64,000 nucleotides of DNA. Source: Candidatus Thorarchaeota archaeon. GTDB lineage: Archaea > Asgardarchaeota > Thorarchaeia > Thorarchaeales > Thorarchaeaceae. The notes beneath the pieces are model-generated. The model saw only the letters and a list, made by a program, of their open reading frames with translations, was not told where the DNA came from and did not search any database. Positions 9,406 to 26,503 of the stretch are shown in pieces (position 1 is the first letter of the stretch; each line of letters begins with the position of its first letter). Position numbers and translations under genes: made by a program. The stretch is taken from assembly GCA_046482545.1 (NCBI GenBank), contig JAWOEX010000032.1, positions 128,001 through 192,000 of the forward strand, given 5' to 3'.

Positions 9406-11004
9406 TCAGTAATTGAGAGCATTATATGTAATCTTCCCCCCGAGAACAGTTAACAGGGTCTTGACATTCTTTAGATTCTCTCGGGGTATTTCCAAGGGAT
9501 TCCTATCGAGTACAACTAAATCGGCTAATTTTCCTTTTTCGATTGTTCCTTTCTTTCCCTCTTCCCATCCTGCATAAGCTCCTAGCTTCGTGTAGGCCTC
9601 AATGCCTTCTAGTGGACTGATAGCCTGTTCAGCATGTAGAACCTGTCCGCTATCCGTTTTCCGGGTGACAATCCCGTATATGCCGAGCCACGGGTTTGGC
9701 GAACAGATGGGGCAATCACTGTGACCCGGGGCTGGAATTCCCATCTCTATCAGTATTCGATGGGGCCACATCCATTGCATAGCACTTTTTCCTCTGTTCG
9801 CTTGGTAAGCATCACCCAAGTCATGAATAAAACCGGTTGCAGAAGCATCGATTACACCGAGGTTCTCGAGTCGAGATAGTATAGCAGGTGTAGCATAGCA
9901 ACAATGCTCGATTCTATGGCGATGATCTTCTCTTGGGTTCTCTTGTAGTGCTGCTTCAATTGCATCTAACGCTCTATCAATGCCCCTGTCACCAATCCCA
10001 TCGAGTCCAACTCTAAGACCAGCATCATGTGCCTTCCTTACTCTCTCGGTTATGTCATCTTGGTCGTAGAGAAGAATACCTGTGTTATCTGGCTCACCAA
10101 CATATGGCTCATAGTACGCCGCGGTACGGCCGCTGGTGCTTGTATCGAAAATCCATTCTATTTCTGTAATTTTGAGCCAGTCATCACCAAAGGGAGTTTG
10201 AATTCCCGCATCAATCAGAGCCTCCAGCATTCCCTTAGTATCCCCGGACATGTGGATACAGACTCGCAACCGGAGCCTGCCCTCCCTCCGTAGTTCTTGG
10301 AACGCTCTGAACTCCTTGGCTGTTGTCATTGAGGCATGTATTGTGGTAATCCCAAGAGTCAAGAACTCCTCCATCACCAACTCAAGCCCCTCTTTGTACT
10401 CCTCAAGAGTTGGCTCAGGGGTCTTCTCGTAAACCAGATCCTTTGCCGATTCACGCAAGACTCCAGTAGGTTGACCTTCTGCATCCCTATCGATTTTTCC
10501 ATGCGGAGGATCGGAAGTGTTTTCATCAATCATTGCGGCTTCTAATGCTAGGCTGTTGACTATGCCTATGTGGGCATCTCGCCGCTCGATGTATAATGGA
10601 TTATCGGGTGATGCTCTGTCAAGTTCTTCTAGTGTTGGATATCGGCCAAGCTTCACATCGTCCAAACGGAAACCAAGTACCCATTCGCCTGATGCTGTTT
10701 CGCTAGCTCTTTCCTTTACCCTCTTAAGGAGTTCAGACATAGACGGGGTGTCACAATCTATTCCTGTTTTAGCTATACCATACATACCCGGGTGCATGTG
10801 TGAGTCGATTAGTCCCGGAATCACTGTACGTTGCTGAAGGTCTATGATTCTAGTTTCATCCCCCACTAGCTTTACAATCTCATCATTCGAGCCAACAGCC
10901 TGTATCCTGTCGTCTTTAACGGCGATAGCTTCTGCACTAGGATTGGCTTGAGCAACTGTGACTATGTGACCGTTCGTTAGGCAAAGATCAGCGAAAAAAG
11001 GCAT
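9406..11004 (-). CDS. YtcJ-like metal-dependent amidohydrolase (Amidohydro_3)
   Basis: PGLIDSHMH, RIEH, SDCP and GTIEKGKLADLVVLDRNP. Confidence 0.87.
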   Translation of the reverse strand: MPFFADLCLTNGHIVTVAQANPSAEAIAVKDDRIQAVGSNDEIVKLVGDETRIIDLQQRTVIPGLIDSHMHPGMYGIAKTGIDCDTPSMSELLKRVKERASETASGEWVLGFRLDDVKLGRYPTLEELDRASPDNPLYIERRDAHIGIVNSLALEAAMIDENTSDPPHGKIDRDAEGQPTGVLRESAKDLVYEKTPEPTLEEYKEGLELVMEEFLTLGITTIHASMTTAKEFRAFQELRREGRLRLRVCIHMSGDTKGMLEALIDAGIQTPFGDDWLKITEIEWIFDTSTSGRTAAYYEPYVGEPDNTGILLYDQDDITERVRKAHDAGLRVGLDGIGDRGIDRALDAIEAALQENPREDHRHRIEHCCYATPAILSRLENLGVIDASATGFIHDLGDAYQANRGKSAMQWMWPHRILIEMGIPAPGHSDCPICSPNPWLGIYGIVTRKTDSGQVLHAEQAISPLEGIEAYTKLGAYAGWEEGKKGTIEKGKLADLVVLDRNPLEIPRENLKNVKTLLTVLGGKITYNALNY

Positions 11005-24623: not shown

Positions 24624-25790
24624 GCTTCCCTTGTAAACCCCTTTAGAAGTAAACAATTGGATATCCAAACCAACTACTGGGCAGTTCTGACGATTTGGTT
24701 CCTTCCCTCTAGGATAGCGTATGCTGCAACACTACCCCCGCAGATTGTATATATAGAGGCAAACTCCCTTTTGCCAGCTCTATAGTTACTGTTCCAATCG
24801 GATTAGTATCGGACTGGGGTGATGTAGACTTACTCATTTTTTCCTCCTCAGCAGTTCTCGCATCAACACTCATCATGGATAGACTCGTTGACAGAATTGG
24901 TTTCGAGTTGATAGCAGGTGTGATGGTGGTTCTCATCATTTTGCTCTTTGTCTACACTGACACACCTTACGAAGTCTCTCACGGAAGAACTCTCCTTATC
25001 TTTGCAGTGCCAATTGTGATGGCGGCTTTTCTCATTAGACCGTGGACTTCGGCATTGATTGCCATTCTCAGTTCTGTTATGTCACTGTTTGCAGGCTATG
25101 CTTTGCCAAATATACCCGCTATAGTGACATTTCACATTCTTGCGCTTCTCGTTTGGAATCTCTCTTCCCACCTTGAAGATACGATTGAGCAGCTAGCCAG
25201 CTCGCAAGAACGACTTGAAAACCAGAAGAAGCAGGCAATTCTGTATCTTGACGTTTTTGGACATGATTTTGCTAATAACCTCTAAGCTATCCTATTGGCG
25301 TTGGAATTCATAAAAGCACATTCTACAAGTGAAGAGATTAGACCAGTTATTAATAATGCAATCGACACATTGCATGACAGCAATAGTCTGATTAGAGAAG
25401 CGAAGAAGTTTGAATCCATCAATCAAGGTGAATTGAAGCCTTTTGAGATCTGCAAAACATTGGCGATATGTGTGGACGTTTTCAAGAATGAATATCCTGA
25501 TATTGCTATTGAATCCGAGGGGAACGTATCGGAAGCAGTAGTCAAAGCAGATACGTATGTTGCAGACTTATTCTCAATCCTGCTTGAAAATGCGGTACAG
25601 CATAACCCAAAGCAAAGAAGAACGTCTGGGTGCAAATACAGGAGGAGTGTGGCGGCTATGTAGTATCTATTGCAGATAATGGACCAGGAATACCCGATTT
25701 ACGAAAATCAACTCTATTTGATTTATCACATAGATATGGAGGACTTGGTTTACATCTGGCCAAGCTAATAGTTGACAATTACAGAGAAGG

Positions 25791-26334
25791 CAAGTTTTAC
25801 AAAAATCCTAAAAAATTCGGGTACAAAAGTGTAAGATTTCCTGCAACTCCTCTCCTGACCACAAGGGGAGTTTATTAGGCTCAGTACGGGGCCCCGGTTC
25901 AGTAGGACGAGGCAAGTGGGCTAGTGTTATACACGAGGCACGCGGCCGAAGGCTGTGAGGTGGACTCGTTCCACTAAGCACAAGTTCCCACTCTCCACTA
26001 AAGGAACTCCATCAGGTTCCGGAGTGTCCGCGGCTGTTCACCTTGTCCGTAATGGACCTCCTCAGTTACGGCGACAATGCTGAGGTGGGTGATCATGACC
26101 ACGCCGTGGCAAGAACTGTGGAAGACCTCGCTGTCGCCGGAGTGATGTGGCGGAGTTCGACAGGAGACGATAGCAATGACCGCGGAAGGAATCCCATTCC
26201 TGTGAACGCGGACAAAGCCCCTGCTGACTCACGGGCCTACGGGTACACAGAGGGCGGCAACGCTGGCAGGGGAAGAGTGGAACACAGAAGTTTCAGGCAG
26301 TTGCCAAAACTGTAAGAAACAGGTTATGCAAAGG
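25791..26334 (+). mobile_element. Non-autonomous ~545-bp insertion (MITE-like; IS607/TnpB-derived suspected)
   Basis: Interrupts the kinase HATPase domain, and removal restores the frame. AAGG at both junctions (25787-90, 26331-34). Direct repeat CAAAA(G/C)TGTAAGA at 25824-36 and 26305-17. No transposase ORF. Exact ends ambiguous by a few nt. Confidence 0.75.
25880..26290 (+). ncRNA. Putative structured RNA inside the insertion (omegaRNA-like candidate)
   Basis: GC-rich island with many helices, G-U pairs valid only on the + strand, cUACGg (26237-42) and GCAA (26257-60) tetraloops, and long-range pairings. Boundaries approximate. Confidence 0.55.
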
Positions 26335-26503
26335 TACTATTGCGGTCGAGAATCGGGTTTATGGAGAACCTGGAAAGGGAACCAAATTCCGGGTATGGTT
26401 ACCGGCTCTTGATTCGGGGAAAGACCGGCTTCATGGAACAGCGAGTTAGAAATACTATAAATACTAGAATTCCGATGGATTATGGGGAGATTGCGTTTTA
26501 CAG

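What the first reader, a model, noticed from the sequence alone, without database searches (positions are those of the whole stretch)
25880..26290. The insertion's cargo is a large, strand-specific structured RNA (candidate omegaRNA-type guide scaffold)
Seen: helices CGCGGCC/GGCTGTG (25941-57, two G-U pairs), GTGGA/TCCAC (25960-74) and AGTTCC/GGAACT (25983-26008). A 13-bp long-range helix TGTCCGC+GTTCAC (26025-41) / GTGAACGCGGACA (26202-14). A hairpin CCTCAG/CTGAGG whose loop CGGCGACA (26069-76) is exactly complementary to TGTCGCCG (26132-39), a pseudoknot candidate. A junction closed by CCCCTGC/GCAGGGG (26218-72) containing both a cUACGg and a GCAA tetraloop. GTTCCACT (25968-75) is complementary to AGTGGAAC (26276-83). 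The G-U pairs and tetraloops only make sense on the + strand. Inference: the element lost its proteins but kept about 400 nt of RNA, larger than typical TnpB omegaRNAs. It could load a TnpB/Cas12f-like nuclease in trans, with the right flank (TACTATTGCGGTCGAG...) as guide, so each new insertion would mint a new guide. An unrelated ribozyme or IStron-like RNA is the alternative, since precise removal restores the host frame.
Basis: partly seen in the sequence, partly recalled or inferred. Interest (0 to 1): 0.85.

Follow-up and report, generated by a model that had tools for sequence, protein, structure and literature searches.

The report
Asgard Cas1-transposon guide RNA, protein-less copy
This is a 542-base jumping DNA piece, copied about 35 times in a Thorarchaeota genome, that has lost its genes but kept an unusually large (about 430 nt) guide-RNA scaffold of a Cas1-plus-TnpB transposon, a family noted before but whose RNA had not been worked out.

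Summary
The RNA is real; about half the listed helices are wrong. Window 25786-26327 is a 542-bp non-autonomous element with a 5-bp target duplication and about 35 full copies in this Thorarchaeota genome. Its parent is an 8.3-kb element with the same ends, encoding a 1400-1960-aa Cas1/Cas4/RecA-like protein and a rearranged-site TnpB: the published Asgard aCas1-TnpB family. The true pseudoknot pairs ATGACC (26095-100) with the terminal GGTTAT (26322-27), so the guide starts at 26328. Not an IStron. New against the literature I could read: a second, crRNA-like RNA upstream of tnpB covaries with the scaffold's 3' end and carries a spacer against its own promoter behind TTMAT; relatives sit at tRNA, 16S rRNA and mvhD sites matching their guides, beside replacement, intron-bearing or recoded copies, which suggests homing. 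Loading of the protein-less copies in trans is inferred; their insertion sites lack TTMAT. Other first-stage readers noted this family elsewhere in the same genome, and two of their notes gave the leader-RNA lead.

The parts
25781..25785 (+). Left copy of the 5-bp target duplication (ACAGA), preceded by the T (25780) found 5' of 33 of 36 insertion sites; family consensus T|CNNGA
   Evidence: empty alleles in two genomes of the genus (L161, L162)
25786..25860 (+). Left end: short motifs TYTTACA (25795-801) and TGTAAGATTT (25830-39) in inverted arrangement, shared with the 8.3-kb parent; candidate aCas1 binding sites (inferred)
25871..25878 (+). TATA-like TTTATTAG kept in most protein-less copies; would start a transcript near 25900 (inferred)
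25905..26141 (+). Frameshifted remnant of the tnpB C-terminal tail (aa 461-539, after RuvC-III), overprinted by the RNA
   Evidence: tblastn, 49-51% identity in two frames
25900..26327 (+). About 430-nt omegaRNA-type scaffold; covarying helices 25954-64/25970-80, 25990-96/26021-27, 26038-42/26088-92, 26045-48/26054-57, 26060-70/26075-85, 26131-39/26151-63, 26180-83/26208-11, 26188-92/26196-200, 26218-25/26265-72, 26228-34/26246-52, 26253-56/26261-64. The 5' end is inferred
   Evidence: 58 of 59 supported pairs can form in this copy
26095..26100 (+). Pseudoknot 5' strand ATGACC
   Evidence: covaries with the last six bases of the element
26290..26320 (+). Terminal hairpin GTTTC..CAGTT / AACTG..GAAAC; in this copy the GTTCACTCAC loop of the parent (which pairs with the leader RNA) is deleted; also the DNA right-end repeat
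26322..26327 (+). Pseudoknot 3' strand GGTTAT = end of scaffold = right end of the element
26328..26347 (+). Predicted guide (host flank); first five bases are the right duplication copy GCAAA, two mismatches to the left copy
24875..26460 (+). Interrupted host histidine-kinase gene; besides the insertion it has a stop near 25285 and a frameshift near 25630; intact 390-aa orthologues in two relatives (end coordinate approximate)

Best explanation
A non-autonomous derivative (MITE/PATE-like) of the Thorarchaeota aCas1-TnpB transposon. SHOWN by comparison: same ends and 5-bp duplication as an 8.3-kb parent that encodes a Cas1-Cas4-RecA-like protein and a TnpB with intact rearranged catalytic residues; the cargo is the tnpB-overlapping RNA; the structure is conserved by compensatory change, also among protein-less copies; the scaffold closes with a pseudoknot at the element's last base, which puts the host flank in the guide position; full elements carry a second crRNA-like RNA that can pair with the scaffold's 3' end. 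INFERRED: aCas1 moves the element in trans by casposase-like integration at T|CNNGA; the RNA is transcribed from the TATA-like box and loads TnpB; in the parent the cis guide cuts unoccupied alleles (homing/retention, as for IS605 TnpB) while the leader crRNA steers TnpB to its own promoter with 9-15 nt of pairing (autorepression). The protein-less copies are hitch-hikers that supply extra scaffold; most have lost the leader-pairing loop and so would escape the autorepressing RNA. The guide of this particular copy probably has no cleavable target.
For: 43 BLAST matches, 93 nhmmer hits in the genome. Parent elements L021 and L022 with the same ends and perfect 5-bp duplications. Giant protein: Cas1 catalytic domain Z 13.0, rmsd 3.8, 175 aligned, twelve Cas1-family chains on top including casposase; MGME1/Cas4-like Z 8.9; RecA/KaiC-like Z 6-7; invariant E/H/D. 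TnpB D243, G346, E404, D438 invariant in 41 of 41. Covariation; in 34 protein-less copies stems differ 12% from consensus against 18% for other scaffold positions, and changed stem cells keep pairing 281 times (119 double changes) against 121 breaks. Pseudoknot variants ATGAAC:GTTTAT, ATGATC:GATTAT, CCGACC:GGTCGG, AAGACC:GGTCTT, ACGACC:GGTCGT, GCGACC:GGTCGC; 5.36 of 6 pairs against at most 5.04 in 2000 shuffles. Leader RNA: cognate duplex -22.8 against -19.1 kcal/mol non-cognate, 0 of 10000 permutations; spacer repeats the own promoter over 9-15 nt, 90-101 nt upstream, behind TTAAT/TTCAT in 35 of 38; its end also fits the pseudoknot partner. Homing pattern in relatives. No tyrosine or serine recombinase found in the 99%-complete genome.
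Against: No direct transcript ends or strand; the metatranscriptome signal is from contigs of relatives and only a weak hint. No TTMAT at any of 36 MITE sites (AT in 12) and no excess of TTMAT-adjacent targets for MITE guides. Exact duplications in only 17 of 36 copies (6 more with one mismatch). Related elements are not independent, so permutation values overstate. Structure conservation among MITEs may partly reflect repeated birth from, or recombination with, functional parents rather than selection on each copy. The genome also has IS4/IS5-type DDE and Y1 transposases whose ends I did not compare.
Confidence: 0.8

Rival explanations
1. RNA-guided integration: TnpB loaded with this RNA steers aCas1 to the site matching the guide, and integration at the TAM/protospacer junction regenerates the guide as right flank (a Tn7-independent CAST analogue).
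For: Elements of different genera share guides against the same tRNA, 16S rRNA and mvhD sites; in two fully traced tRNA insertions the junction is ..AT|5-bp duplication = first five guide bases, and the element carries a replacement tRNA (L130, L151); targets of 16S and mvhD guides also follow AT; aCas1 and tnpB are head-to-head across most of the family.
Against: The dispersed copies in this genus insert at T|CNNGA with no shared guide, which fits an integrase sequence preference; TnpB keeps all catalytic residues, unlike Cas12k; cut-and-copy homing by recombination explains fixed sites without guided integration.
Confidence: 0.17
2. Inert relic: the protein-less copies keep the RNA only because the right end and tnpB tail were retained in the founding deletion; the RNA is not used.
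For: Minimal elements without the RNA exist (55-bp palindromes, internal deletions); some copies have decayed to about 80% pairing; guides lack TTMAT targets.
Against: About 35 copies keep the full scaffold, starting just after RuvC-III; stems are more conserved than loops and left end; 119 double changes among protein-less copies; conserved TATA-like box.
Confidence: 0.25
3. Self-splicing IStron-like intron or unrelated ribozyme that hides insertions from host genes.
For: Large, highly structured RNA with tetraloops; this copy lies in sense orientation in a gene.
Against: No Rfam match, group I/II included, in the window or six homologous loci; 28 of 36 copies intergenic, 4 sense and 4 antisense in ORFs; element removal alone does not restore the frame; host gene is a pseudogene; RNA sits at the right end over the tnpB tail, whereas IStron catalytic cores lie at the left end (own knowledge).
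Confidence: 0.03
4. The guide is the hypervariable stretch upstream of GTTCACTCA, as suggested in PMC10691335.
For: That stretch is variable between elements and was proposed as spacer-like.
Against: It covaries with each element's own leader RNA and pairs with the cis 3' arm, i.e. behaves as an anti-repeat; the pseudoknot and the matches to tRNA/16S/mvhD all place the guide after GGTYRG/GGTTAT.
Confidence: 0.05

Closest known systems
aCas1-TnpB loci of Asgard archaea (Cas1H-Asgard-1/2; PMC10691335 section 9, citing Makarova et al. 2020, CRISPR J 3:156, which I could not read)
   Same: Asgard Cas1 variant next to tnpB, flanked by repeats, conserved GTTCACTCA motif downstream of tnpB; proposed there as a distinct transposon family.
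   Different: The readable paper gives no RNA structure, no target duplication, no MITE family, no leader RNA, no tRNA/rRNA targets, and places the guide upstream of GTTCACTCA; my data place it downstream of the pseudoknot end.
IS200/IS605 TnpB omegaRNA and PATE elements (bioRxiv 10.1101/2023.03.14.532601; pseudoknot in 10.1101/2023.11.20.567912)
   Same: RNA overlaps the tnpB 3' end, ends at the right end with a pseudoknot, guide is the flank; protein-less elements encoding omegaRNA used in trans are described.
   Different: Moved by a Cas1-type protein with a 5-bp duplication, not by Y1 peel-and-paste; scaffold about 430 nt, roughly twice typical omegaRNAs (sizes from own knowledge); insertion sites do not carry the full motif seen at the leader target; two-RNA option.
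Casposons
   Same: Cas1-fold integrase, inverted terminal motifs, target duplication, tRNA insertion in some members (own knowledge).
   Different: No polB; Cas1 fused to Cas4-like and RecA-like domains in a 1400-1960-aa chain; 5-bp duplication; carries TnpB and guide RNA.
Type V-F (Cas12f) tracrRNA:crRNA and promoter-targeting autoregulatory RNAs (tracr-L of Cas9, CreR-type; own knowledge, tracr-L cited in PMC8730458)
   Same: Large scaffold with a 3' anti-repeat that pairs with a short repeat-plus-spacer RNA; short spacer against the own promoter.
   Different: Here in a transposon without a CRISPR array; the scaffold also has its own cis guide; only 1-2 repeat-spacer units.
CAST homing (type V-K, I-F)
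   Same: Short guides against tRNA and other conserved genes beside which the element sits.
   Different: No TnsA/B/C/D; nuclease residues intact; guided integration not shown.

Membership tests
TnpB omegaRNA | Located at the right end, overlapping the tnpB 3' end | tested here: met
TnpB omegaRNA | Conserved secondary structure with covariation | tested here: met
TnpB omegaRNA | Pseudoknot with the scaffold 3' end directly before the guide | tested here: met
TnpB omegaRNA | Guide taken from the right flank, matching the empty site | tested here: met
   (by position; two seed mismatches in this copy)
TnpB omegaRNA | TAM present 5' of the insertion site | tested here: inconclusive
   TTMAT at leader target, AT at most fixed-site targets, only T at MITE sites; true TAM not measured
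TnpB omegaRNA | Transcribed, bound by TnpB, directs cleavage | not testable with these tools
   one search gives contigs only
Asgard aCas1-TnpB transposon (Cas1H-Asgard) | Asgard host, divergent Cas1 adjacent to tnpB in the parent | tested here: met
Asgard aCas1-TnpB transposon (Cas1H-Asgard) | GTTCACTCA motif downstream of tnpB; terminal repeats | tested here: met
   parent and most relatives; motif deleted in this MITE copy
Asgard aCas1-TnpB transposon (Cas1H-Asgard) | Placement in group 1 or 2 of the published tree | not tested
   published sequences not in hand
IS605/IS607 element | Y1 or serine TnpA in the parent; no target duplication | tested here: not met
   parent has neither; 5-bp duplication; no serine recombinase found in genome
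IStron (group I intron plus IS) | Group I core; precise removal restores mRNA; sense bias in genes | tested here: not met
Casposon | Cas1-fold integrase with terminal repeats and duplication | tested here: met
Casposon | Family B DNA polymerase gene | tested here: not met
   ORF lists and Pfam of four full elements
CAST-like RNA-guided transposon | Nuclease-dead effector | tested here: not met
   D, alternative E and D invariant
CAST-like RNA-guided transposon | Integration site set by the guide | tested here: inconclusive
   fixed-site elements fit, dispersed copies do not

The most novel reading that the evidence does not exclude
The 430-nt RNA is a tracr-like scaffold of a transposon in which TnpB guides a Cas1-Cas4 integrase to RNA-specified sites (tRNA, 16S rRNA, mvhD), uses exchangeable crRNA-like units for autoregulation, and accumulates one to three repeat-spacer units: an RNA-guided casposon and a living model of a proto-CRISPR type V system.
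Probability: 0.17. Interest if true: 0.95.

Novelty: new variant of a known kind. Interest (0 to 1): 0.74.

Why it matters
The aCas1-TnpB family joins the two mobile-element ancestors of CRISPR (Cas1 integrase and TnpB nuclease) in one element, but its RNA was undefined. This analysis gives a covariation-backed scaffold, the exact scaffold/guide boundary, a candidate TAM (TTMAT, perhaps only AT), element ends, duplication size and a ready set of intact loci, so TnpB activity, aCas1 transposition and any coupling between them become directly testable. A transposon-borne two-RNA arrangement with promoter-targeting would be an intermediate between single omegaRNA and tracrRNA:crRNA systems. Guides against 16S rRNA and tRNA sites that are interrupted by short introns in the carriers may bear on why Asgard tRNA and rRNA genes gain introns.

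Tried and rejected
Rfam: no family in the element or six homologous loci. Single-sequence folding z-scores uninformative. Pfam finds nothing in the giant protein; Foldseek gave only weak Cas1 rows before the wide search. C-terminal half of the giant protein: model pLDDT 70, best Z 5.2 to Cas1 chains over model residues 256-433, a possible second degenerate Cas1 domain, too weak to claim. Complex prediction TnpB(5-452) with aCas1 N-terminal 545 aa: no verdict, score 0.00, not evidence either way. Tyrosine and serine recombinase models for mobility dropped: none found in the genome. My early idea that the guide is the element's own terminal repeat after GTTCACTCAC was rejected by the pseudoknot covariation. 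Search for TTMAT-adjacent genomic targets of 36 MITE guides: no excess. Sigma-70 scan irrelevant for an archaeon. Sequencing runs: two salt-lake metatranscriptomes hold relatives as contigs, depth about 230-1960 inside the RNA against 28 on the left end and 0-4 on flanks in X3, but a DNA run shows the same shape less steeply, so only a weak hint. Makarova 2020 and Altae-Tran 2021 could not be read; supplementary files of PMC10691335 were not checked, so some details may be there. No covariance model or R-scape run; covariation was computed with my own G-test/APC and parsimony scripts.

Full report
Observation. One sequence alone folds no better than shuffles (z 0.15) and Rfam has no match, so the case rests on comparison. 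The region has 43 BLAST matches and 93 nhmmer hits in its own 3.05-Mb genome and homologues in 23 of 36 genomes of the same family, none in the 24 genomes of other families searched. Named records holding a core motif are Thorarchaeota.

Anatomy. The element is 25786-26327 (542 bp). It is flanked by ACAGA (25781-85) and GCAAA (26328-32), a decayed 5-bp duplication. Among 36 copies with both ends, 17 have an exact 5-bp duplication and 6 have one mismatch, consensus T|CNNGA. Two genomes of the same genus have the empty allele, an intact 390-aa histidine kinase; removing the element plus one duplication copy restores the frame, removing the element alone does not. The window gene has two further lesions. 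Of 36 copies 28 are outside long ORFs, 4 sense, 4 antisense, so there is no sign of splicing rescue.

Parent. Two 8.2-8.3-kb elements in the same genome have the same ends and exact 5-bp duplications. They carry tnpB (544-561 aa) and, head-to-head, a 1400-1960-aa gene. This pair recurs across the family. The large protein has no Pfam hit. Its N-terminal model (pLDDT 82) matches the Cas1 catalytic domain (Z 13.0, rmsd 3.8, 175 aligned; twelve Cas1 chains on top, casposase among them), then a Cas4/MGME1-like nuclease (Z 8.9) and a RecA-like fold, with invariant E, H and D at Cas1-like positions. TnpB has the rearranged site described in PMC10691335: D243, G346, E404, D438 are invariant in 41 of 41. 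This is the aCas1-TnpB family of that paper, which noted the GTTCACTCA motif and left the RNA unresolved. The MITE is the left end joined to everything after RuvC-III; the tnpB tail is frameshifted in this copy.

RNA structure. In 100 homologues (mean identity 68%) the top covarying column pairs fall into helices. Their strands pair elsewhere: 25990-96/26021-27 (11), 26038-42/26088-92 (11), 26045-48/26054-57 (24), 26131-36/26158-63 (14), 26180-84/26207-11 (16), 26188-92/26196-200 (16). In 34 protein-less copies alone, stems differ less from consensus than other positions (12% against 18%; left end 24%) and changed stem cells keep pairing 281 times, 119 by double change, against 121 breaks. This copy can form 58 of 59 supported pairs.

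Guide boundary. ATGACC (26095-100) pairs with the last six bases of the element, GGTTAT (26322-27), and both change together across clades (ATGAAC:GTTTAT, ATGATC:GATTAT, CCGACC:GGTCGG, AAGACC:GGTCTT, ACGACC:GGTCGT, GCGACC:GGTCGC). A pseudoknot with the scaffold 3' end just before the guide is the conserved feature of TnpB and Cas12 RNAs (10.1101/2023.11.20.567912). The guide therefore begins at 26328 with the duplicated bases.

Second RNA. Two earlier first-stage notes on this genome pointed to a repeat-like stretch upstream of tnpB. I tested it. About 50 leaders carry a 75-nt cassette whose GAGTGAACTCAACT-type segment is complementary to the same element's hypervariable-plus-GTTCACTC stretch and changes with it (cognate -22.8 against non-cognate -19.1 kcal/mol, 0 of 10000 permutations, kin not independent). 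It ends in a hexamer that fits the same pseudoknot partner and is followed by 9-15 nt that repeat the cassette's own promoter 90-101 nt upstream, behind TTAAT or TTCAT in 35 of 38. The repeats copy non-consensus promoter bases, so they are not just two TATA boxes. I infer a crRNA-like RNA that pairs with the large scaffold and represses its own promoter. The stretch proposed as guide in PMC10691335 is thus better read as an anti-repeat. Most MITEs, this one included, have deleted that loop.

What the guide does. In other genera the bases after the scaffold end match tRNA, 16S rRNA and mvhD genes, and unrelated genomes share the same guides. Two cases are traced fully: insertion into tRNA-Val (CAAAT|CCGGC) and tRNA-Arg (TGGAT|GCCGC) with a 5-bp duplication and a replacement tRNA inside the element. 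Three of four genomes with the 16S guide and an assembled 16S have a 30-nt intron inside the target, against 3 of 19 without that guide (small numbers, related genomes). mvhD genes next to mvhD-guided elements mismatch the guide. This fits an active nuclease that cuts unoccupied alleles, as shown for IS605 TnpB (10.1101/2023.03.14.532601), which also describes protein-less elements encoding omegaRNA. For the MITEs the picture is weaker: none of 36 sites has TTMAT, 12 have AT, 33 have T, and their guides have no excess of TTMAT-adjacent matches. This copy has CAATT and two seed mismatches, so its guide is probably idle.

Expression. Two salt-lake metatranscriptomes hold relatives of the RNA as contigs with much higher depth inside the scaffold than on the left end or flanks, but contigs give no strand or ends and a DNA run shows a similar, flatter shape. 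Weak hint only.

Mechanism. Shown by comparison: ends, duplication, parent, domain folds, intact catalytic residues, RNA structure, pseudoknot, leader pairing. Inferred: transposition by aCas1 in trans, transcription, TnpB loading, TAM, autorepression, homing. Confidence in the overall identity 0.8. RNA-guided integration by aCas1 is not excluded (0.17): fixed-site elements fit it, dispersed T|CNNGA insertions and an intact nuclease argue against it.

Verdict. A new variant of a known kind. The parent family is published and protein-less omegaRNA carriers are known, but the 430-nt scaffold, the corrected guide position, the leader RNA and the homing pattern are not in the papers I could read. 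Interest 0.74.

Noticed in passing
L123 RE tail, L141:~9990-10040, L143 RE tail, L188-L190: Mini-arrays of two scaffold-end-plus-spacer units after the right end (16S 1392 region, 1492 region, 3' anti-SD end; tRNA). Could be nested insertions or Cas1-Cas4 spacer acquisition.
   Followed up: partly
L187-L191 (16S guide tails): The 16S guide is followed by its own partial complement (CCCTGC...GCAGG), a hairpin that could mask the guide; G002 has such a hairpin and an uninterrupted 16S target.
   Followed up: no
L169, L173, L175, L176, L178, L183 (16S rRNA): Short 30-nt introns in Thorarchaeota 16S genes inside the ACGTCCCTGC/TTCTTGC site, and others in the GGAATCCCTAGT site, both of which are guide targets.
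   Followed up: partly
L023, L066/L122, L074/L138, L075/L128, L137, L147: A clade of aCas1-TnpB elements always ends 20-30 nt from the 3' end of tRNA-Gly(TCC) and lacks a clear cis pseudoknot end; several have a second tRNA-Gly fragment at the other side.
   Followed up: no
G000 C28:231783-231837 and C38:49765-49819: About 55-bp palindromic minimal elements made of two right-end arms around GGGTTCACTCACT.
   Followed up: no
L021:6461-8974 (giant protein aa about 1073-1250): Weak structural likeness (Z about 5) to a second Cas1 helical domain, motif LYGNxLFL; the protein may be a single-chain Cas1 pseudo-dimer that lacks the usual N-terminal beta domain.
   Followed up: partly
L080 leader; L074/L138: Leader cassette tandemly duplicated in L080; two tnpB-RNA units in tandem in L074/L138.
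   Followed up: no
L070, L151, L154, L155: tnpB-RNA elements without aCas1 next to tRNA-Leu, tRNA-Val or another tRNA 3' end that their guide matches.
   Followed up: partly
G000 whole genome: No Phage_integrase (XerA-like) match in a 99%-complete archaeal genome with this search; unexplained, may be a search or assembly gap.
   Followed up: no
window 24875-26460: Membrane histidine-kinase pseudogene with a stop and a frameshift besides the insertion; intact in two relatives.
   Followed up: yes
G000 C10:30875, C30:8803, C10:14856, C2:79302: Right junctions with two extra bases (AT) between GGTTAT and the duplication, suggesting imprecise end processing.
   Followed up: no
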